A stretch of 64,000 nt of DNA, from contig CAWCKY010000002.1 of NCBI GenBank assembly GCA_963796275.1, positions 256,001 through 320,000 on the forward strand, read 5' to 3'. This document shows positions 7,780 through 44,478 of this stretch, piece after piece. A program made the translations under genes and the position numbers. This stretch comes from an uncultured Acidobacteriota bacterium (GTDB taxonomy: Bacteria > Acidobacteriota > Blastocatellia > RBC074). Position 1 is the first letter of the stretch, and each line of letters starts with the position of its first letter. The notes beneath the pieces are model-generated. The model saw only the letters and a list, made by a program, of their open reading frames with translations. It searched no databases and had not been told where the DNA came from.

Positions 7780-7848
7780 CTAAACCTCAAAGGATACTCC
7801 ATCCATAGCGAGCATCTGGGCGAGCTTGGATGGAGAGGAATTTTGAGA
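7780..7848 (-). repeat. Solo copy of the IscB-element 3' end hairpin (PATE/MITE-like)
   Basis: aaacctcaaaggatactccatccatagcgagcatctgggcgagcttggatggagaggaattttgaga aligns with 40581-40648, and the 49-nt core is 47/49 identical to 44391-44439. Confidence 0.85.
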
Positions 7849-7937
7849 CCCCGCGACTTAGGGTAAATCACTTCAAGTATAGAATGACATGTAGTATCAT
7901 TCGTTCCGTGAAATTGACATGTGCTAGACCCTGACCT

Positions 7938-37745: not shown

Positions 37746-40577
37746 CTACGCCGCGCCGCCCACACCTGTTTGCGAGGGCCGGCGGCGTTGCTCTTCCTGC
37801 CGCTTTTGCTCCTGCTGTCGTCGTTGTTCCTCCTGCCGCCTTTGTTCTTCCTGCCGTCTCTGTTCCGAGGCTCTTTGGCGTTCTTCATTCTGTCGTCGCT
37901 GTTCTTCCTGACGTCGTTGGTCCGCCTGACGTCGTTGATCCTCTTGGCGCCTCTGTTCCTCGACTCTTTGGCGTTCTTCATTTTGCCGCCTCTGCTCTTC
38001 CTGTCGCCGCTGATCCTCCTGTCGCCGCTGCGCTTCTTGCTGCCTCTGTCCCTCGGCTCTTTGGCGTTCTTCATTTTGCCGCCTCTGCTCTTCCTGTCGC
38101 CGCTGATCCTCCTGTCGCCGCTGCTCCTCTTGCTGTTTCTGTCCCTCGACTCTTTGGCGTTCTTCATTTTGCCGACTCTGCTCTTCCTGTCGGCGTTGAT
38201 CCTCCTGTCGCCGCTGCTCTTCTTGCTGTCTCTGTCCCTCGACTCTTTGGCGTTCTTCATTTTGCCGACTCTGCTCTTCCTGTCGTCTTTGTTCCTCCTG
38301 TCGTTTTTGCCCCTCGACTCTTTGGCGGTCTTCATTCTGCCGTCTCTGTTCTTCCTGTCGCCTCTGTTCTTCCTGTCGCCGCTGATCCTCCTGTCGCCGC
38401 TGCTCTTCTTGCTGCCTCTGTCCTTCGACTCTTTGGCGTTCTTCATTCTGGCGTTTCAGTTCCTCGGCTCTCTGGTGTTCTTCTTGCCGTTGACGCCCAT
38501 CATCCCGATTCGGCTCTTCCGATCGGCGAGGTATGTCCCTGTCAACCGGTCGCGTCGGTAGGGTCGGTCGAGGAAATTCTTTATCGTCGGGTCGCGCCGG
38601 CCGAGTTTGATGGGGCGCGTCTTTGTCGCCAGGCCTCGTCGGGAGAACGGGCCGATTTGAATTTCCATCGTTAGGCCGTGTGGGCTGAGCCGGTCGTGGT
38701 CCCTCTCCGTCGTTCGGCTGTGTGGGTTGAGCTGGTCGTGGTCCCTCTCCGTCATTCGGCCGCTTGGGCTTCGCCGGTCGCCCCCCATCATTCGGACGGG
38801 TCGGATGGGTTGGACGCGGTACGTCCCCGTCGTCATGCCGCACGGGTTGAGCTGGTCGCGGTATGTCTCTGTCGTTCGCCTGCCCTGGCCCAGCCGGACT
38901 ATCACCATCTCTGCCTTTTGGCCGTGTCGGCAGAGACGGCCGAGCCACATCCACATCGTTTGGCCGCGTCGGTCGAGCCGATCGAGGACCGTCTTTTTCA
39001 ACCACCCGTGTCGGCAGGGACGGACGAGGTGCATCTTTATCGGCTGGTCGCCCTGGTAGAGCGGGACGGGCAACATCTCTGTCCTTCGATCGTGTCGGAT
39101 GGCCCGGATGATTCGGTCTCGCAGGCCGTTGAACTATCGGTGTTTCGAGCCTGCGCCTGATCTCCGGGCGCTCAACAAACTTAGCACGAGTCGGAACCAC
39201 TCGAACCGGTTTAATCTGGTCCCAATTAACCCACGCGGGTTTCGCTGAGTTATTCGACCTTCTGTCGCGTTTAATGGAAATCAGAGCATCACGCGTGACG
39301 ATCGCACGCCCATTATGGAATCGGCTGCCATCCATGCCGCTGACGCCGCCAGGCGCACGGTAGTTCCGTAGAGAGCCGACAGCTCCACGAAATTTGTTGA
39401 ATCGCCCCTTGTGGCTGTGATGCGCCTCACCGGGCGCTAGCGGACACCATCCCAACCATCGATGACCATTGCGATCTCGATCATGACCCCGATGATCCTT
39501 TCTATCACCCCAGCCAAAAAAGGCGACCAGATGCGGGGACCATCTCCACGGCCGGCCGGTGTGAAATTTTACGCTGGGCACCCAGCACCAACGTTTGCCA
39601 TGAAATGCCCATCGCCCATAATGATATGGGAGCCAACCCCACGGCTCATTTGAGATCCAGGTCCAGCCATATGCTGGACTCCACCGCCAATTCCCGTGAC
39701 GGTATGGAGCCCAATCGGTAGAAGCGCCGCGCGGACACCAAACCCGGCCATAATCTGGGGTATCGAGCCATTCGCCGTACACATCCAGCTCGTGGACGCC
39801 GGGCAGGACATCCGGTACATAACTCGGACTTTGATTGCTTTCTGCTCGCGCGAAGAGCTCTTCATCACGCCGATCGTTCCAAATATCCCAACTGTCCTTC
39901 TCATCGACCGAAGCACTTTGAAATGTGCCCGGATCATCGCCCCTCAACACAACTCGCTGTCCCTGATTGATGACGACCGAGTCTATCTCCTGATTGTCGA
40001 TTAAGGCTTCGCCACGCCACACTACGACCTCTGTCGTACCATCTTCGTCTACATTGATTCGATAAAGACCTTCCTTGAGAAAAACGACAGCTACGGTAGG
40101 AGTGTCGACCTCGAAATAGACAGGATCATCGGTACCATCATCCTTCGCATCCTCTATCTGGAATTGTCGTTTATCCAGACTATCGATCCGGAATGTTGCC
40201 GTTCCGACCGACAGCGCTAAACGAATTGTGTCGTTATTGAATTGGGTAAAGCGAAGGTTGGTATTGTTATTTATTCGGACGATGTTGCGACCGCTCAATT
40301 GGATTTCGGCACGCCCATCGGGTCCGCTGTAAAGCTGATCGCTTTCATCGAGCGGGAGGTTCAGTGTCGCGTCGAACCACTCTTCATTCGAATCGTTGGC
40401 CCGCCGGTAGTTGATCTCGCCCTCGATCAGGCTGACACGGGCGACGTGAATGACTGGATCATCAGCCAGAACGACCGACCCGAACGCCATCTGGGAACAG
40501 ATCATTATCACCATCGGCCAAATACTGCAGGCGCGGTGACGGGGGAAATAATCAACAAGTTTGTGAAAAAACTTCAT
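37746..40577 (-). CDS. Secreted FecR-like/DUF6600-like protein with Pro-rich and Q/E/R-rich repeat tail (943 aa)
   Basis: ARVSLIEGE..RAEIQL (FecR-like), LDVYGEW..WAPYRHGNW..EPWGWLPYHYGRW. ATG at 40577 is preferred over TTG 40589, which lies inside the IscB element. Confidence 0.8.
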   Translation of the reverse strand: MKFFHKLVDYFPRHRACSIWPMVIMICSQMAFGSVVLADDPVIHVARVSLIEGEINYRRANDSNEEWFDATLNLPLDESDQLYSGPDGRAEIQLSGRNIVRINNNTNLRFTQFNNDTIRLALSVGTATFRIDSLDKRQFQIEDAKDDGTDDPVYFEVDTPTVAVVFLKEGLYRINVDEDGTTEVVVWRGEALIDNQEIDSVVINQGQRVVLRGDDPGTFQSASVDEKDSWDIWNDRRDEELFARAESNQSPSYVPDVLPGVHELDVYGEWLDTPDYGRVWCPRGASTDWAPYRHGNWRWSPAYGWTWISNEPWGWLPYHYGRWAFHGKRWCWVPSVKFHTGRPWRWSPHLVAFFGWGDRKDHRGHDRDRNGHRWLGWCPLAPGEAHHSHKGRFNKFRGAVGSLRNYRAPGGVSGMDGSRFHNGRAIVTRDALISIKRDRRSNNSAKPAWVNWDQIKPVRVVPTRAKFVERPEIRRRLETPIVQRPARPNHPGHPTRSKDRDVARPALPGRPADKDAPRPSLPTRVVEKDGPRSARPTRPNDVDVARPSLPTRPKGRDGDSPAGPGQANDRDIPRPAQPVRHDDGDVPRPTHPTRPNDGGRPAKPKRPNDGEGPRPAQPTQPNDGEGPRPAQPTRPNDGNSNRPVLPTRPGDKDAPHQTRPARPDDKEFPRPTLPTRPVDRDIPRRSEEPNRDDGRQRQEEHQRAEELKRQNEERQRVEGQRQQEEQRRQEDQRRQEEQRRQEEQRRQNEDRQRVEGQKRQEEQRRQEEQSRQNEERQRVEGQRQQEEQRRQEDQRRQEEQSRQNEERQRVEGQKQQEEQRRQEDQRRQEEQRRQNEERQRAEGQRQQEAQRRQEDQRRQEEQRRQNEERQRVEEQRRQEDQRRQADQRRQEEQRRQNEERQRASEQRRQEEQRRQEEQRRQQEQKRQEEQRRRPSQTGVGGAA
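37780..38460 (-). repeat. Coding tandem repeat: about 93-nt units built from 18-nt RRQEEQ subunits
   Basis: gactctttggcgttcttcat recurs, e.g. at 38148 and 38241 (93 nt apart). Confidence 0.9.
38530..39115 (-). repeat. Coding repeat: about 14 copies of a 14-aa RPxxPxRPxDxDxP unit
   Basis: RPALPGRPADKDAP, RPSLPTRVVEKDGP, RPAQPTQPNDGEGP, RPTLPTRPVDRDIP and others. Confidence 0.85.
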
Positions 40578-40585
40578 CAGAAACC

Positions 40586-41920
40586 TCAAAAGGATACCCC
40601 ATCCATAGCAGCCATCTTGGGCGGCTTGGATGGGGAGGAATTTTGAGATCGTGCGCTAGCACGATTAATTCCGTAGCCGTCCGCCTTATGAATCACCCGG
40701 CAGTATCGATGGCTGATCCCCTGGATCGTGCCTGCCGCAGTCTTCACATTGAATGAGCCGCTGCTACGCACAGCGACTCGCCCCACATAGCAGCCGATCT
40801 TTTTGCCGGATCTGACATTTGCCTCGACCATATCTCCGGTTCTGAAGCCTTTGACCGTACGTGGGCCTTTGGCTGATGTGCGTGGAAACCCGTACTTGTC
40901 CATCCGGCACATCTGTCGGGTGTTATGCCCTGTCGCCTTGATCTCCAATGGGATAACTCCGTCGACAACGACCTGTGCGGGCGTTGACTTCCCGACGCAG
41001 GCCGCGTCGATCCAGTGCGCCTTGGGCAGGTCTCGCATCGTCCGGTTGTATTTGGTCAGTCCGCCTGATCCTGTCTCGACCGGCAGTCCGAAGCCCTTTA
41101 ACCGCTCCAAGAGCGCCCACCGCGTTGCATTCAACGCCGCCGCATCCTTCAATGGTTCTTTGACCTGCTGCTCGATCTCAGGAAATCCAAACTCGGCTGC
41201 GGTTCTAGTACCCTTCCGTTGATTGCAACCAGCACAGGCCACCGTCAGATTCGAGACTCGATCACTGCCTCCTCGTGATTCCGGAATGATGTGTTCGATC
41301 TGCAGGGGAATATCTGTCTTTGAACAGTAGGCGCACTTCCGGCCCCACTTCTCAAGCAGATACTCTCTCACCTCGTATCCGGCCAACTCACCCTGCTGAT
41401 ACTCGATTCCGGAGATATCCGGATTCTCCAGCAACTGAGTGTCGAACTTTACCAACTCCATTGAGAGGCCCGAGATCGGATAGAGCCGAGCCAGCCGATT
41501 GACCCACGTCTCAATATTGCTGATCCGGCTCTTGAGCGAAGGTGGCAGCCACCCTTCTGGCCGCCTCCGGTTGAGAAATCGCGGCTTCCGGTATCTGGTC
41601 TTTCTTGAGCGCCGACTGCACCGGATCGCTCTCCGTGCAGCTAAAGCCTGCTTGATTGCCTCTCCTCGGTGCTCAATCTCGGCTGCAAAGACGACCTGTC
41701 CGGATCCCTGATTGACTATCGCCACTCCGGTCTTTCTGGATCCTGGATCCAGCTTGAGCCGAAGATCCGGCACTTGTTCCTCAACCACGCGCTTGAGGAT
41801 GATCGTGAATGGCGCTCTCCTGAAGACTGCGGCCTTGCCTTCCTTCAGCAGGAGTCTGGCCCGTACCGCCGAAGTCGGCGCCAGAGGTCTTCTGTTTTGA
41901 TCGATGACTGCTACTTGCAT
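40586..41920 (-). CDS. iscB: RNA-guided endonuclease IscB
   Basis: PLMP domain (RPLAPT), RuvC-I LDPGSRKTG, Arg-rich bridge helix, RuvC-II MELVKFD, HNH (CAYC..IEHIIPESRGGSDRVSNL..CAGCN), RuvC-III HWIDAAC. Confidence 0.96.
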   Translation of the reverse strand: MQVAVIDQNRRPLAPTSAVRARLLLKEGKAAVFRRAPFTIILKRVVEEQVPDLRLKLDPGSRKTGVAIVNQGSGQVVFAAEIEHRGEAIKQALAARRAIRCSRRSRKTRYRKPRFLNRRRPEGWLPPSLKSRISNIETWVNRLARLYPISGLSMELVKFDTQLLENPDISGIEYQQGELAGYEVREYLLEKWGRKCAYCSKTDIPLQIEHIIPESRGGSDRVSNLTVACAGCNQRKGTRTAAEFGFPEIEQQVKEPLKDAAALNATRWALLERLKGFGLPVETGSGGLTKYNRTMRDLPKAHWIDAACVGKSTPAQVVVDGVIPLEIKATGHNTRQMCRMDKYGFPRTSAKGPRTVKGFRTGDMVEANVRSGKKIGCYVGRVAVRSSGSFNVKTAAGTIQGISHRYCRVIHKADGYGINRASARSQNSSPSKPPKMAAMDGVSF

Positions 41921-42214
41921 TGTGAGAATGGCCCTTTCGAGCCGCTGGCATTGCTGCCGTTATGTTAGCCTCGACAATGATGCCTGAGCTTGTTAGTTCA
42001 ACGCACTGGCGATTACCCGTAACCGATATTTAACGCTGAACGACAGTTGCCACGGACTGGCTATCGCATCCGTGGGTGTCTCGGTTTAATAACCTAACTC
42101 AAACATCGTAGCTGCATGCCTTTCGGCTATCGCTTAGTCTGGTCAACCAGGCTCATCGGTGACCCGACAAGCCCCCACTATAGTTGCAAAGCAACTTAGT
42201 GGCGGGTGGGTGAC
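41921..42214 (-). ncRNA. omegaRNA (HEARO-like) scaffold
   Basis: HEARO-like blocks in order: GTCA-CCC..GGGGGCTTG, GTTGACCAGACT, CTACG, GACACCCACGGATGC..CCAGTCCGTGG, CATTGTCGAGG. The 3' end is approximate. Confidence 0.85.
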
Positions 42215-42767
42215 AGCTTCCTCCGGCCAAGTCAAAAGAGCTTCTAACTACTTAATTAGATCGATCAGAACCTGCATCATTCTATTCAGAGCTCACGCCA
42301 TGCCCATGACAGCTTCGAACAGATTAGAAAACAGCTCGAAGCCCCCCCGATTCGCGCGCGGAAAGATTCAGCCCGCTTAGCGGTGCGGGGATGAACAGTA
42401 AAATAGTGGTCGAGGGTTACGCCAATCGGGCAGATGACTAAGATGGACTGTCATTACCTCTGGGTAGCTCGCACGGCGGATATCATTCGGGTCGATGTTA
42501 CGTCTTTCGTACACGGGTGACTGGAAAAAACACGCTCTGTACGGATGAAGGTTGATCTGGTCACACTGCGGTATGAGAGCCGTCGGCTCGTTTACCGGCG
42601 AAATCTTTAATATGTTCCGTTTTATGAATATCGAAACGCCGAAGGCTGAAATTCGCCCCTAAGTCCGTTTATTTTGGTGATTGGGAGCTCATCGGCAGGA
42701 TAGGGCACAAGTAATTTACAGGATTTAAATCCTGAACTGGCGCTTTGTGTAAAGCTCTTTCTACGGT

Positions 42768-43748
42768 TCACTGACCACTCAGATTGGAGCCGGGTTTCCG
42801 AGGATCGATCCGAGGCTCGATTGGAAGTCTGATAGGCGGGATTTTGATCGGGGGGAGACGCCGCTTCTTTTTGGTGTCGGCAGGCTTCCAATCATACTCC
42901 CCGATCTCCGGGCGATCTTTAGCCGTGATGAACCCGGAGCTGTTGAGTTGGTATTCATTTTTCTTAGGAAAGCGAGCTACCAGCTTGCTCGTATATCGAA
43001 TCCGGTCCTCGTTCATAGGATGAGTGCGAAATCTATTGCGCAGCGGGATCTTAGTCTTCTTCTCCTGCTTCCGCAGCTTTTCCAGGAAAGTAATCAATGC
43101 CTGTGGATCATATCCGGTCTTCCATAGATACTGTGCAGCCAGTCGGTCTGCTTCCTTTTCTGCATCGCGTGAGAATTTGAAAGATAGTACGCTCGCAGCC
43201 TGATTGATGGAACCGTTTCCGCCTCCGAGGAAATTCAACGAACGCGAAACCCAGGCGATCAGTTCCCTTCTTGATGCCTGTTCGATGCTGTGTCGCGCGG
43301 CTATATGCGCGACCTCATGCGCAATCACGGCTGCCAACTCAGCTTCATTATCGGCAGCCTCAATCAAACCGCGGTTGACGTAAAGATACCCTCCGGGTAG
43401 AGAAAATGCGTTTATTTCTGGGGAATCGATCACTTTGGCCGTGACCGCCGATTTGCTGTCTGAATTGATAACGATGTTTTGCGTGACGCGATTGATAAGC
43501 TCCTGGATGCCAGGATCCTTGACCAATTCTGCGCGCGCTTCCAATACACTCGCCATTCGCTTACCCAGCTCAGCCTCTCGTTCCAGCGAATAGATATTGA
43601 CCTGGCGCTTATTGATATCTCGCTTGCCGATCAAGTCCGGATCTTCCCTCTCCTTGAGCGGTTTCTTCTCTTTATCTGATGCCGCCACCGACATTACAAT
43701 AAGCGAAGAAGTCAGTAGCGTGATCAGTAGCTGCCTGATCAGATTCAT
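42768..43748 (-). CDS. M48-family metalloprotease (BepA-like)
   Basis: INAFSLPGG, ELAAVIAHEVAH (HEXXH), EKEAD, THP; signal peptide. Confidence 0.9.
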   Translation of the reverse strand: MNLIRQLLITLLTSSLIVMSVAASDKEKKPLKEREDPDLIGKRDINKRQVNIYSLEREAELGKRMASVLEARAELVKDPGIQELINRVTQNIVINSDSKSAVTAKVIDSPEINAFSLPGGYLYVNRGLIEAADNEAELAAVIAHEVAHIAARHSIEQASRRELIAWVSRSLNFLGGGNGSINQAASVLSFKFSRDAEKEADRLAAQYLWKTGYDPQALITFLEKLRKQEKKTKIPLRNRFRTHPMNEDRIRYTSKLVARFPKKNEYQLNSSGFITAKDRPEIGEYDWKPADTKKKRRLPPIKIPPIRLPIEPRIDPRKPGSNLSGQ

Positions 43749-44379
43749 CCTACTCCCTTTCCAATTAGTTAACATGAATAGTCGAACCAGCGATCTGTTC
43801 TCATCACTTGCTGGCAAGGGTTTCTCCGATTAGCCCTTGATGTTACTTTGGCTTAATGCCAGAACCACCTTGGCCAACAACTGATTTTGTAATAATCATT
43901 CAATGCAGTGGGCACGATAATGAGAAAACGCGGAACTACAGCTTTGAGGGATAGCTGGGTCTCATTGACTTATTCCAACAGAGTTTTCACTCCTTAAAAT
44001 ACATCCCTTTCTAGGTGCCATGATGTGAGATATCACACACGGGTTACTGATATCTCGATTCCGGTTATTCGCGATCGACGAGAATTGCCTAACCTATCTC
44101 AGACGACTGCAGCCGATAGCTACTGGAATCAATGCTTTCGGCTCTGCAGGCTAGGCGCAAGGCTCTAATGTATTCGATCATCCAATCTCTCAAGCTCCAA
44201 GAGCGACAAATATGATTCAGGTGCCTCCCTTTTCGAGAAGACAATCGTTAAAGTTATGAGCAACTGGTTCATCCGCAGCTGAAGAGATGTCATCGATAAT
44301 AATCAGCTTTGATTTTAAACTTTGTTTAAAAAAGTTATTTAGGGATTCAAAGTATTACGGTACGTGGCGGTATTATCAT

Positions 44380-44439
44380 CCGCGAAAGAATACTCCATCC
44401 ATAGCGAGCATCTTGGCGAGCTTGGATGGAGATGAATTT
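44380..44439 (-). repeat. Second solo copy of the IscB-element end hairpin
   Basis: tactccatccatagcgagcatcttggcgagcttggatggagatgaattt; followed by ATGAT on the minus strand. Confidence 0.82.
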
Positions 44440-44478
44440 CGCATCGTGGGCGAATCATTTCGGAGGAACGGGTCGCAG

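What the first reader, a model, noticed from the sequence alone, without database searches (positions are those of the whole stretch)
40573..42235. IscB element inserted exactly between a host RBS and its start codon, carrying a replacement RBS
Seen: on the minus strand the flank before the element is ...ttggccGGAGGaagct and the flank after it is ATGAAGTTTTTTCAC..., the start of the 943-aa gene. Deleting 40578-42214 gives a textbook GGAGG-N5-ATG. The element's last bases are ...ttttGAGGtttctg|ATG, a new Shine-Dalgarno 6 nt before the displaced ATG, overlapping the iscB TGA stop (40586-40588). Known: HEARO/IscB elements integrate next to ATGA-like motifs, and ATGA(A)-type TAMs are reported for some IscB proteins. 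Inference: the element targets translation starts and makes the insertion harmless by supplying its own RBS and translational coupling, while using the host promoter to transcribe guide plus omegaRNA.
Basis: partly seen in the sequence, partly recalled or inferred. Interest (0 to 1): 0.88.

Follow-up and report, generated by a model that had tools for sequence, protein, structure and literature searches.

The report
IscB transposon docked at a start codon
A small RNA-guided-nuclease transposon sits exactly between a gene's ribosome-binding site and its start codon, and relatives of this transposon in several bacterial phyla sit at start codons far more often than chance allows.

Summary
Window 40578-42214 (minus strand) is a 1,637-bp non-autonomous IS200/IS605-type element. 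It carries a HEARO/omegaRNA (41959-42214) and an intact iscB (40586-41920). It separates GGAGG-AAGCT from the ATG of a 943-aa DUF6600 gene. Orthologues in related genomes read GGAGG-N5-ATGA at this spot, so the insertion lies between the native SD and the start codon.

This is not a one-off. In this genome, 7 of 15 ends of this type abut validated protein N-termini. A crude tolerated-sites null gives 12-17%. In a Chloroflexota sister family, 21 of 25 ends abut ATGA followed by a long ORF (null 17%). Several other families end in SD-like motif + 5-7 nt + ATGA/GTGA.

The replacement-RBS idea stays unproven. The GAG of GAGG is the 3' arm of a covarying basal stem of the transposon end. The family with the strongest start-codon association has no SD, only a stop codon 7 nt before the ATG.

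N|ATGA targets and reliance on outside transcription are published. I found no report of start-codon docking in nine literature searches.

Verdict: a real, likely selected insertion-site strategy. It is a new variant of a known element type. Function is untested.

The parts
42215..42230 (-). 16 nt flanking the omegaRNA end of the element. This is the presumed omegaRNA guide. It contains the displaced native Shine-Dalgarno GGAGG (42224-42220) and the 5-nt spacer AAGCT (42219-42215).
   Evidence: sequence; orthologues keep gcgcGGAGG-N5 directly before their ATG. The guide role is inferred from published IscB architecture (Meers preprint).
41959..42214 (-). omegaRNA scaffold (HEARO RNA). Its first base is the element boundary.
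   Evidence: RF02033, 108.8 bits (cut-off 83), E 1.1e-22, model positions 1-211; 7 copies in the genome share this 5' end, each with a different flank.
40586..41920 (-). iscB, 444 aa, an intact RuvC-HNH nuclease. Similarity to relatives stops at about residue 416 in most loci, and the last ~28 codons run through the transposon-end hairpin.
   Evidence: RRXRR E 6.5e-68; HNH_5 E 9.9e-15; solved IscB chains match (TbaIscB E 3.7e-42, OgeuIscB E 1.5e-30) and the HNH C-x2-C...H...N...C-x2-C motif aligns; most relatives match residues 3-416 only.
40578..40647 (-). Structured transposon end on the iscB 3' side. Basal stem CTCAAAA (40647-40641) pairs with TTTTGAG (40591-40585). Then an internal loop, then the apical hairpin (40635-40597), then a 6-nt tail. 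The loop TATCC next to the hairpin covaries with the target.
   Evidence: fold -46.2 kcal/mol, z -5.6, 0 of 200 shuffles fold as well; stem variants CTCAAAA/TTTTGAG, TGCGAAA/TTTCGCG and GCGAAAA/TTTTCGC each pair 7 of 7. CTCGAT/ATCGAG pairs by eye.
40584..40587 (-). SD-like GAGG, 6 nt before the host ATG. It overlaps the iscB stop TGA (40586-40588).
   Evidence: the genome's 16S rRNA ends ...GGATCACCTCCTTTCT. GAGG is kept in 15 of 15 ends of this type; its GAG is predicted to be paired.
40574..40577 (-). Target ATGA (N|ATGA). The ATG is the host start codon. It is the presumed TAM for IscB on the empty site.
   Evidence: 13 of 15 GAGG-type ends abut ATGA. Kapitonov 2016 reports N|ATGA targets for ISC elements.
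37746..40577 (-). Host gene, 943 aa, DUF6600 protein with an N-terminal signal-like segment and a long Q/E/R-rich tail. The ORF is intact.
   Evidence: DUF6600 E 9.9e-25; orthologues in 5 genomes align from residue 1.
42768..43817 (-). Upstream co-oriented gene (M48 peptidase). A 553-nt intergenic region lies between it and the element.
   Evidence: Peptidase_M48 E 9.1e-32. One promoter-like site at 42306-42279 (-), which is not above chance.
7783..7855 (-). Second copy of the same GAGG-type end module inside the window (a short non-coding derivative). It ends ...GAGGtttag|ATGAATGAA, and the ATG (7779) starts a 340-aa family-2 glycosyltransferase.
   Evidence: G000:C2:263783-263855. Glycos_transf_2 residue 7 aligns with profile position 1.

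Best explanation
Window 40578-42214 is a non-autonomous IS200/IS605-family 'ISC' transposon made of an omegaRNA, iscB and a structured end.

How it got there (inferred from the family). A Y1 (TnpA-type) transposase supplied in trans pasted it as single-stranded DNA immediately 5' of an ATGA. The target appears to be read by the loop next to the end hairpin. Here that ATGA is the start codon of a conserved gene, so the element now separates the native GGAGG-N5 from its ATG.

Why this placement recurs. This is the typical resting place of this element family and of several related families. Three reasons can be proposed.
1. An insertion at N|ATG leaves the ORF whole.
2. The site is always transcribed in the sense direction from the host promoter. 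IscB needs this, because its guide is the 16 nt outside the element, here the host's own RBS region.
3. The element end can restore translation of the displaced ATG. In this copy it offers a GAGG 6 nt upstream. The iscB reading frame also runs through the whole end and stops (TGA) inside that GAGG, 8 nt before the ATG. Ribosomes finishing iscB would open the basal stem and could re-initiate.

Expected nuclease role. IscB with this guide would recognise the empty allele (RBS region + ATGA as TAM) and cut it, favouring re-copying of the element, as published for IscB.

What is shown: anatomy, exact junction, recurrence at start codons, covariation. What is inferred: transposition by TnpA in trans, guide use, SD function, translational coupling.

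The confidence of 0.6 is for the whole account. Identity and the exact junction stand at about 0.97, a non-random start-codon association at about 0.9, and restoration of translation by the element end at about 0.5.
For: Identity.

Exact junction and orthologous empty sites.

Mobility: searches show 5 HEARO copies, internally deleted copies and different flanks. One search shows metagenome contigs diverging at both ends.

Recurrence in this genome:
- 30 end modules were found. 15 are GAGG-type, and 13 of those abut ATGA.
- 9 of 15 open an ORF of at least 90 aa, against 20.9% of all 83,833 ATGA sites (p=0.001).
- 7 of 15 are validated N-termini. One rests on orthologues. Six rest on Pfam with the profile start 1-39 residues in: PhdYeFM, Abhydrolase_1, DUF6351, Glycos_transf_2, adh_short, Glyoxalase.
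- The crude tolerated-sites null is 12-17% (p=0.001-0.007).
- 2 more lie inside the leader of a co-oriented gene.
- Sister ends that abut ATAA: 0 of 12 abut a co-oriented ORF.

Other genomes:
- Of 78 IscB loci with a readable 3' end (80 fetched), 13 non-cyanobacterial loci have a boundary fixed by alignment. 12 of these 13 abut ATGA/ATGG opening an ORF of at least 80 aa or running off the contig. The null is 17-21%.
- A census of one Chloroflexota end family in 4 genomes gives 21 of 25. 8 of the 25 repeat loci.
- 18 of 20 downstream ORFs have Pfam hits, and 9 have the first domain starting at profile position 1-2 within 52 residues of the junction codon.

SD-like ends at 5-7 nt from ATGA/GTGA occur in this bacterial family, in cyanobacteria (GAGGAGGttcg|GTGA, cGGAGGtttttag|GTGA), and in L048, L095, L099 and L114.

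The iscB stop lies 0-10 nt from the host ATG in many families.

Anti-SD CCUCC is present in this genome's 16S rRNA.

Published: N|ATGA and GT|GA targets (PMC4810608, passages). Need for transcription from outside and co-orientation with the upstream gene (10.1101/2023.03.14.532601, passages).
Against: - The GAG of GAGG is paired with CTC in both the MFE and the centroid fold. That basal stem covaries across subfamilies. GAGG may therefore be kept for transposase recognition, not for ribosomes.
- The family with the strongest start-codon association (21 of 25) ends ...cgcgccTGAaatttcg|ATGA and has no SD-like motif.
- 4-5 of 15 copies in this genome are not at or near a co-oriented gene start.
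- In cyanobacteria only 7 of 19 automatically bounded junctions open a long ORF, about 10 of 26 by eye. A nearby in-frame ATG could be the true start in some of them (L090).
- An SD-like motif in the flank on the omegaRNA side was seen in only 8 of 34 loci from other genomes.
- omegaRNA-only mini-elements lacking iscB also sit at start codons, so coupling to iscB translation cannot be the general rescue.
- No transposase gene is linked to this end subtype in the assembly. There are 9 Y1 hits. The only one next to a related end is beside an ATAA-type end and has an internal TGA.
- There are no expression data.
- Copies within a genome and among kin are not fully independent, and the nulls are crude.
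Confidence: 0.6

Rival explanations
1. Retention bias only. The transposase needs nothing but TCAT/ATGA. Insertions inside genes are purged. Start codons are simply a large share of the ATGA sites that are both harmless and, for IscB, transcribed in sense. The GAGG is just the 3' arm of the basal stem that the transposase recognises, and the stop-codon position is incidental. The element has no adaptation towards translation.
For: The basal stem covaries (CTCAAAA/TTTTGAG, GCGAAA/TTTCGC, GCGAAAA/TTTTCGC, CTCGAT/ATCGAG), and GAG is paired in the fold. Families without any SD-like motif show the same or stronger start-codon association. Target choice is explained by the loop next to the hairpin: TATCC with ATGA, TATTC with ATAA, CATCC with GTGA. 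A third of the copies here are elsewhere.
Against: The observed share exceeds a tolerated-sites null: 7 of 15 and 21 of 25 against 12-17% (the null was computed on this genome only). In this bacterial family, all four end variants with start-like targets (ATGA, GTGA) keep GAG+G even where the inner stem has changed (TTTTGAGG, ATCGAGG). The ATAA-type ends have GCGG, CGCG or TCGC at that position. SD-like motifs 5-7 nt before ATGA/GTGA recur in unrelated end families. The iscB frame is kept open through the end up to 0-10 nt from the host ATG in several families.
Confidence: 0.25
2. The insertion silences or strongly reduces the host gene through polarity, loss of the RBS and a structured leader. 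The host genes are dispensable and simply have not yet decayed.
For: The host ATG now lies behind 1.6 kb of foreign sequence. The new SD-like motif is weaker (GAGG against GGAGG) and is predicted to be paired. No expression data are available.
Against: All 7 validated host ORFs in this genome are intact, although the end modules have diverged to 76-98% identity from one another. 18 of 20 tested downstream ORFs in other genomes are intact Pfam-bearing genes. By their N-terminal sequences, which I recognised by eye and did not test, these include housekeeping-looking ones: a biotin-carboxylase-like MIHKLLIANRGEIA and a 100-aa NuoK-like protein.
Confidence: 0.08
3. Active preference at insertion. 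The transposase or single-stranded-DNA availability favours translation-initiation regions, for example open AT-rich DNA of transcribed leaders. The bias would then arise at integration and not by selection afterwards.
For: The enrichment exceeds the tolerated-sites null. omegaRNA-only mini-elements show it too.
Against: No conserved bases are seen beyond ATGA on either side of the junctions. Sister ATAA-type ends of the same family are not in leaders (1 of 12 within 130 nt of a co-oriented gene). Nothing in the IS200/IS605 passages I read points to such a preference.
Confidence: 0.12

Closest known systems
ISC transposons: non-autonomous IS200/IS605 elements encoding IscB (Kapitonov, Makarova, Koonin 2016, PMC4810608; passages read)
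   Same: An IscB-only element of 1.3-1.7 kb with subterminal hairpins, no terminal inverted repeats, no target duplication, a 5'-GTCA start, and an N|ATGA (or GT|GA) target. Mobilised in trans by a Y1 transposase. Short protein-less derivatives exist.
   Different: That paper has no occurrence of 'start codon' or 'Shine'. It does not relate the ATGA/GTGA target to translation starts, nor note SD-like motifs or the stop-codon position at the element end.
[quoted passage not shown] 2023 preprint, 10.1101/2023.03.14.532601; passages read)
   Same: The omegaRNA scaffold lies at one element end and the guide lies outside the element. Transcription must start outside. iscB is co-oriented with the upstream gene. 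The TAM equals the transposase target.
   Different: They report an orientation bias relative to the upstream gene only. The single 'start codon' hit I read is an axis definition in a figure legend. They make no statement on position relative to the downstream gene's start, on an RBS, or on coupling.
IStrons (IS200/IS605-type elements fused to a group I intron). Recalled; only named in the Kapitonov passage.
   Same: An IS605-family element that lessens the harm of its own insertion to the host gene at the RNA/expression level.
   Different: IStrons splice themselves out of the mRNA. Here no splicing is implied. The ORF is left whole, and translation would be restored by position, an SD-like motif or re-initiation.
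Safe-site transposons such as Tn7 at attTn7 downstream of glmS. Recalled; no call.
   Same: A mobile element with a preferred harmless site defined relative to a gene boundary.
   Different: Tn7 uses a dedicated DNA-binding protein for one conserved site per genome. Here a 4-nt motif gives thousands of possible sites at gene 5' ends.
PATE/REP-type protein-less IS200/IS605 derivatives. Named in the Kapitonov passage.
   Same: The 150-500-bp copies here keep the element ends only, or the omegaRNA plus the end.
   Different: Many of the mini-elements here and in the Chloroflexota genome retain a full omegaRNA and sit at start codons.

Membership tests
IS200/IS605-family ISC (IscB) transposon | Encodes an IscB nuclease (arginine-rich/RuvC domain with an inserted HNH) | tested here: met
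   RRXRR E 6.5e-68, HNH_5 E 9.9e-15; matches to solved IscB chains, with the HNH motif aligned.
IS200/IS605-family ISC (IscB) transposon | omegaRNA/HEARO directly upstream of iscB, with its 5' end at the element boundary | tested here: met
   RF02033 108.8 bits, model 1-211 at 42214-41959; flanks of 7 copies diverge at that base.
IS200/IS605-family ISC (IscB) transposon | Subterminal hairpins, no terminal inverted repeats, no target-site duplication | tested here: met
   end hairpin with z -5.6; the flanks GGAGGAAGCT and ATGAAG share no duplication; orthologous sites show nothing missing or doubled.
IS200/IS605-family ISC (IscB) transposon | Specific 4-nt target next to one end (N|ATGA) | tested here: met
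   13 of 15 ends of this type abut ATGA; 23 of 25 in a sister family.
IS200/IS605-family ISC (IscB) transposon | Several copies at unrelated loci (mobility) | tested here: met
   one intact copy, one 3'-truncated copy and three internally deleted copies, all with different flanks; the same ends occur at other flanks in metagenome contigs.
IS200/IS605-family ISC (IscB) transposon | A Y1 (TnpA) transposase available in trans that recognises these ends | tested here: inconclusive
   9 Y1_Tnp matches in the genome. None lies next to a GAGG/ATGA-type end. One (C6:2593610-2593894, internal TGA) lies next to an ATAA-type end.
IS200/IS605-family ISC (IscB) transposon | RNA-guided cleavage of the empty site (guide = flank, TAM = target) | not testable with these tools
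   Inferred from published work only.
Shine-Dalgarno ribosome-binding site | Complementary to the 3' end of the organism's 16S rRNA | tested here: met
   the 16S rRNA ends ...GGATCACCTCCTTTCT (location confirmed). GAGG pairs with CCUC.
Shine-Dalgarno ribosome-binding site | About 5-9 nt upstream of the start codon | tested here: met
   6 nt (tttctg); mostly 5-7 nt in the other GAGG-type copies (9 nt in one).
Shine-Dalgarno ribosome-binding site | Accessible (unpaired) in the mRNA | tested here: not met
   G-A-G are paired with C-U-C in the MFE and centroid structures. This is a prediction only, and a ribosome translating iscB would open the stem.
Shine-Dalgarno ribosome-binding site | Needed for translation of the downstream ORF | not testable with these tools
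   No expression or reporter data.
Translational coupling (termination-reinitiation) | Upstream ORF on the same strand stops within a few nt of the downstream start | tested here: met
   TGA at 40588-40586, ATG at 40577, 8 nt between; 0-10 nt in many related families (TAA-N7-ATGA, overlapping ATGA, TGATG).
Translational coupling (termination-reinitiation) | Downstream translation depends on upstream translation | not testable with these tools
   No data. Mini-elements without iscB at start codons show it cannot be the only route.

The most novel reading that the evidence does not exclude
IscB/omegaRNA transposons with NTGA targets are 'start-codon dockers'. Their 4-nt target (also the nuclease's TAM) has been tuned to 'start codon + A', and their guide is the host's own ribosome-binding region. 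Their protein-distal end has evolved devices that hand ribosomes on to the displaced start codon: an SD-like arm of the basal stem, and an iscB frame held open to within 0-10 nt of the host ATG. The element would then gain guaranteed sense transcription for its guide at almost no cost to the host. Many bacterial genes would be translated through a transposon-supplied leader, some coupled to iscB translation.
Probability: 0.45. Interest if true: 0.85.

Novelty: new variant of a known kind. Interest (0 to 1): 0.78.

Why it matters
IscB elements are the ancestors of Cas9 and are being turned into genome editors, yet where they live in genomes, and why, is little described. The published picture is a 4-nt target, a guide that must be transcribed from outside, and co-orientation with the upstream gene.

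The data here add a concrete rule of residence. Many families sit precisely at N|ATG(A) of a co-oriented gene. This makes sense of the ATGA/GTGA targets and gives the guide a defined content, the host RBS region. It also suggests how a 1.6-kb insertion in a leader can be tolerated.

If the end really restores translation, this would be a second way for IS200/IS605 elements to neutralise their own insertion, beside intron-splicing IStrons. It would also mean that host translation can become coupled to a transposon gene. For annotation, it warns that genes directly downstream of iscB or HEARO are probably expressed through the element.

Tried and rejected
- **Empty allele in reads.** One search for runs and one laying of 4 runs gave no clean joint from 40577 to 42215. 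There was only one contig joint, 40577 to 42264, at depth 2, shorter side 26 letters, 'between: not known'. I do not count it. The relatives held are only about 50-60% identical in the host protein, so empty sites could be compared only at the orthologue level.
- **Metatranscriptome contigs across the element ends** (run X20). DNA carry-over cannot be excluded, so these are not used as evidence of transcription.
- **Automatic boundary calling by all-against-all alignment**. It failed or stopped short for 27 loci, and 10 loci had no partner. For 9 cyanobacterial loci, chance matches carried the alignment past the GTGA. Those loci are left out of the automatic counts and described by eye only.
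- **Displaced native SD in flanks from other genomes.** Only 8 of 34 loci have an SD-like motif 2-18 nt before the element. This is no general support.
- **Promoter and terminator scan**. One promoter-like site at 42306-42279 (-), within chance expectation. Not used.
- **Idea that GAGG versus GCGG encodes the target difference.** Rejected, because the loop next to the hairpin (TATCC, TATTC, CATCC) covaries one-to-one with ATGA, ATAA, GTGA.
- **The 142-aa ORF at C2:72231.** Rejected as a gene (no Pfam hit). The frame starting 7 nt later has a signal-peptide-like N-terminus.
- **Literature.** Nine accepted searches found no paper linking IscB or IS200/IS605 insertions to start codons or an RBS. 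Weinberg et al. 2009 (HEARO) is not held, and I did not see Altae-Tran et al. 2021. Supplements are closed. Kapitonov's supplementary figures of insertion sites, and Meers' extended data, could contain examples I could not see. PMC11448079 was read by passages and is not relevant.

Full report
**1. What is in the window**

On the minus strand the sequence reads ...ttggccGGAGGaagct | GTCACCCACCC ... ccttttGAGGtttctg | ATGAAGTTTTTTCAC. The piece between the bars, 42214 down to 40578 (1,637 bp), is the element.
- Its first 256 bases match the Rfam HEARO model (the IscB omegaRNA) end to end: 108.8 bits against a cut-off of 83, with model position 1 at 42214.
- The ORF 41920-40586 (444 aa) has the RRXRR/RuvC and HNH domains. 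It matches solved IscB proteins, with the HNH motif in place.
- The iscB stop TGA (40588-40586) overlaps GAGG (40587-40584). Six bases later comes the ATG (40577) of a 943-aa DUF6600 protein.

**2. The insertion point is exactly between the native SD and the ATG**

The 943-aa protein has orthologues in 36 of 41 related genomes searched (the count includes this genome). In five of the twelve loci fetched, the alignment starts at residue 1.
- Those five read gcgcGGAGG-N5-ATGA directly: GGAGGaacct|ATGAAGATCTTTCAC in a same-genus genome, and GGAGGaagtt, GGAGGaattt, GGAGGtaaat and GGAGGtagct before ATGAC/ATGAG in the others. The last of these is from the unpublished genome G004.
- Two more loci show the same string a few bases off the projected start.

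No bases are doubled or lost, as expected for an IS200/IS605 element. The GT of GTCA belongs to the element, so the target is N|ATGA. Kapitonov et al. described this target type for ISC elements (PMC4810608, passages).

**3. It is mobile and has relatives in the same genome**

The 9.46-Mb genome holds the following:
- 5 HEARO copies;
- one other iscB copy, cut off at its 3' side;
- three internally deleted copies that keep both ends;
- many copies of the last ~85 bases alone.

An iterated nhmmer search finds 30 such end modules.
- 15 end in ...ccttttGAGGttt(2-5 nt)|. The flank is ATGA in 13, ATTA in 1 and ATAA in 1.
- 11 end in ...ttctttcGCGG/GCGA...|ATAA.
- 4 are truncated or divergent.

Soil-metagenome contigs that match the element leave it exactly at 40573/40574 and 42214/42215 and continue into unrelated sequence.

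**4. Start codons in this genome**

- Of the 15 GAGG-type ends, 9 are followed by an ORF of at least 90 codons starting at the junction ATG. Among all 83,833 ATGA sites of the genome, 20.9% are (binomial p = 0.001).
- Seven are true N-termini. One is the 943-aa gene, shown by orthologues. Six are shown by Pfam profiles that begin at profile position 1-2 within 1-39 residues: Phd/YefM antitoxin, alpha/beta hydrolase, DUF6351 behind a signal peptide, family-2 glycosyltransferase, short-chain dehydrogenase, glyoxalase.
- Two more lie inside the leader of a co-oriented gene, one 7 nt and one up to ~100 nt upstream. One is unclear. Four or five are not near a co-oriented start.
- I built a crude gene model from ORFs of at least 120 codons, accepted greedily. 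It gives 14,025 ATGA sites in non-coding DNA and 1,960-2,833 gene starts at ATGA. If only harmless sites were kept, 12-17% of ends should be at starts. Seven of 15 gives p = 0.001-0.007.
- Of the 12 ends that abut ATAA, none abuts a co-oriented ORF, and only one has a plausible co-oriented gene within 130 nt.

**5. Other genomes**

A scan of one genome per species gave 80 loci encoding relatives of this IscB (48-67% identity). They come from Chloroflexota, cyanobacteria, Nitrospirota, Blastocatellia and others. 78 have a readable 3' end.

I fixed the end of the element where similarity between copies stops.
- In 13 non-cyanobacterial loci with a supported boundary, similarity ends 4-8 bases after an ATG. 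In 12 of the 13, that ATG opens an ORF of at least 80 codons or runs off the contig.
- In the flanks of the same 80 loci, 17-21% of ATGA/ATGG/GTGA/GTGG sites do so.
- In cyanobacteria the automatic count is 7 of 19. By eye it is about 10 of 26.

I then took a census of one Chloroflexota end family (...ccgcgccTGAaatttcg|ATGA) in the four genomes that hold loci L055, L057, L059 and L066.
- It listed 54 matches, of which 30 loci were fetched.
- 25 ends were complete, 23 abutted ATGA, and 21 of the 25 opened a long ORF. Eight of the 25 repeat loci already counted.
- Several N-termini are recognisable by eye. These include a biotin-carboxylase-like MIHKLLIANRGEIA, a dehydrogenase-like KTAIITGAGTGIG, and a 100-aa NuoK-like protein.
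- Of 20 downstream ORFs sent to Pfam, 18 have family hits. In 9 the first domain starts at profile position 1-2 within 52 residues of the junction codon.
- Seven of the short copies in that census lack iscB, and at least five carry a complete HEARO. These omegaRNA-only mini-elements also sit at start codons.

**6. The end of the element**

The last ~70 bases fold into a basal stem, an internal loop and an apical hairpin (z = -5.6).

The basal stem covaries. CTCAAAA/TTTTGAG, TGCGAAA/TTTCGCG and GCGAAAA/TTTTCGC each pair 7 of 7. CTCGAT/ATCGAG pairs by eye. The stem is therefore a structural part of the end, presumably for the transposase.

This is the main point against reading GAGG simply as a new RBS.

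Four points remain in its favour.
- In this bacterial family, every variant with a start-like target keeps GAG+G at 6-7 nt from the target, even where the inner stem differs. The variants are TTTTGAGG-N5-7|ATGA, ATCGAGG-N7|ATGA and TTTTGAGG-N7|GTGA.
- The ATAA-type ends carry GCGG, CGCG or TCGC at that position.
- SD-like strings recur at 5-10 nt before ATGA/GTGA in unrelated end families. In cyanobacteria these are GAGGAGGttcg|GTGA and cGGAGGtttttag|GTGA. Others are ttGGAGGcatatc|ATGA (L048), cAGGAGGaactg|ATGA (L099) and cAGGAGctaaacgtct|ATGA (L095).
- The genome's 16S rRNA ends in CCUCCUUUCU.

The target itself tracks the loop next to the hairpin: TATCC with ATGA, TATTC with ATAA, CATCC with GTGA. 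GAGG is therefore not needed to explain target choice. I recall this rule from the IS608 structures and did not test it here.

**7. The iscB stop codon**

Similarity between IscB relatives ends near residue 416. In this copy the frame nevertheless stays open for 28 more codons through the hairpin and stops 8 nt before the host ATG.

Many other families show the same closeness: TAA or TGA followed by 7 nt and ATGA; overlapping ATGA (L043, L096); TGATG (L099).

A ribosome finishing iscB would melt the basal stem and could re-initiate at the host ATG. This is inference. The mini-elements without iscB show that it cannot be the only route.

**8. Reading**

- The element is an ordinary ISC/IscB transposon by every feature I could test.
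- What is not in the papers I could read is its place of residence. The end distal to the omegaRNA is docked on the start codon of a co-oriented gene in this genome and in several phyla, well above both nulls.
- The simplest account combines three things. A 4-nt target coincides with 'start codon + A'. Insertions that break genes are lost. Copies whose outside guide is transcribed are kept, because IscB can then cut the empty allele (published model).
- Whether the end has also evolved to restore translation, by SD-like arm or stop-codon placement, is plausible and testable but not shown.
- I cannot separate insertion preference from retention.

**9. Limits**

- Copies within a genome and genomes of one family are not independent.
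- The nulls rest on ORF length and a crude gene model. The tolerated-sites null was computed on this genome only and applied to the Chloroflexota counts as a stand-in.
- There are no expression data.
- No transposase was linked to this end subtype.
- Supplements and two key papers could not be read.

Noticed in passing
window 44378-44452 (-) = G000:C2:300378-300452; also 10 more places in the genome: A sister family of the same end module ends ...ttctttcGCGG...|ATAA instead of ...ccttttGAGG...|ATGA. None of the 12 ATAA-flanked ends abuts a co-oriented ORF. One lies next to a Y1 transposase gene with an internal TGA (G000:C6:2593610-2593894).
   Followed up: partly
end modules of this genome and loci L124-L152: The 5 bases between the apical hairpin and the basal stem covary with the flanking target: TATCC with ATGA, TATTC with ATAA, CATCC with GTGA. 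This looks like the transposase's built-in target guide, as recalled for IS608.
   Followed up: partly
G000:C7:1014011-1014504, G000:C7:675439-676368, G000:C7:908801-908985; loci L158, L176, L179, L180, L181: Internally deleted mini-elements keep a complete omegaRNA/HEARO and the structured end but have no iscB. The 185-bp copy keeps only the two ends. Most sit at start codons. They would make guide RNAs for an IscB supplied in trans.
   Followed up: partly
G000:C2:48064-48134: A ~70-bp near-palindromic unit reads as an end module on both strands. It is GAGG-type abutting ATGA on one strand and GCGG-type abutting ATAA on the other.
   Followed up: no
window 40586-40670 (-): The last ~28 codons of iscB are not conserved among relatives and are encoded by the transposon-end hairpin itself.
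   Followed up: partly
window 37746-38900 (-): The C-terminal third of the 943-aa DUF6600 protein is a long run of near-repeats rich in Q, E and R (RQEEQRRQ...). Most orthologue matches cover only the first ~700 residues.
   Followed up: no
loci L063-L120 (cyanobacteria): Cyanobacterial IscB elements end in a strong SD-like string (GAGGAGG or GGAGG) 4-7 nt before GTGA/GTGG. In about a third, the GTG opens a long ORF with an intact first Pfam domain (MFS_1, SBP_bac_3, AAA_16).
   Followed up: partly
window 40573-40603 and 42150-42214, run X20: Contigs of a soil metatranscriptome cross both element ends into unrelated flanks. One flank reads, after ATGA, like a signal peptide. DNA carry-over cannot be excluded.
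   Followed up: no
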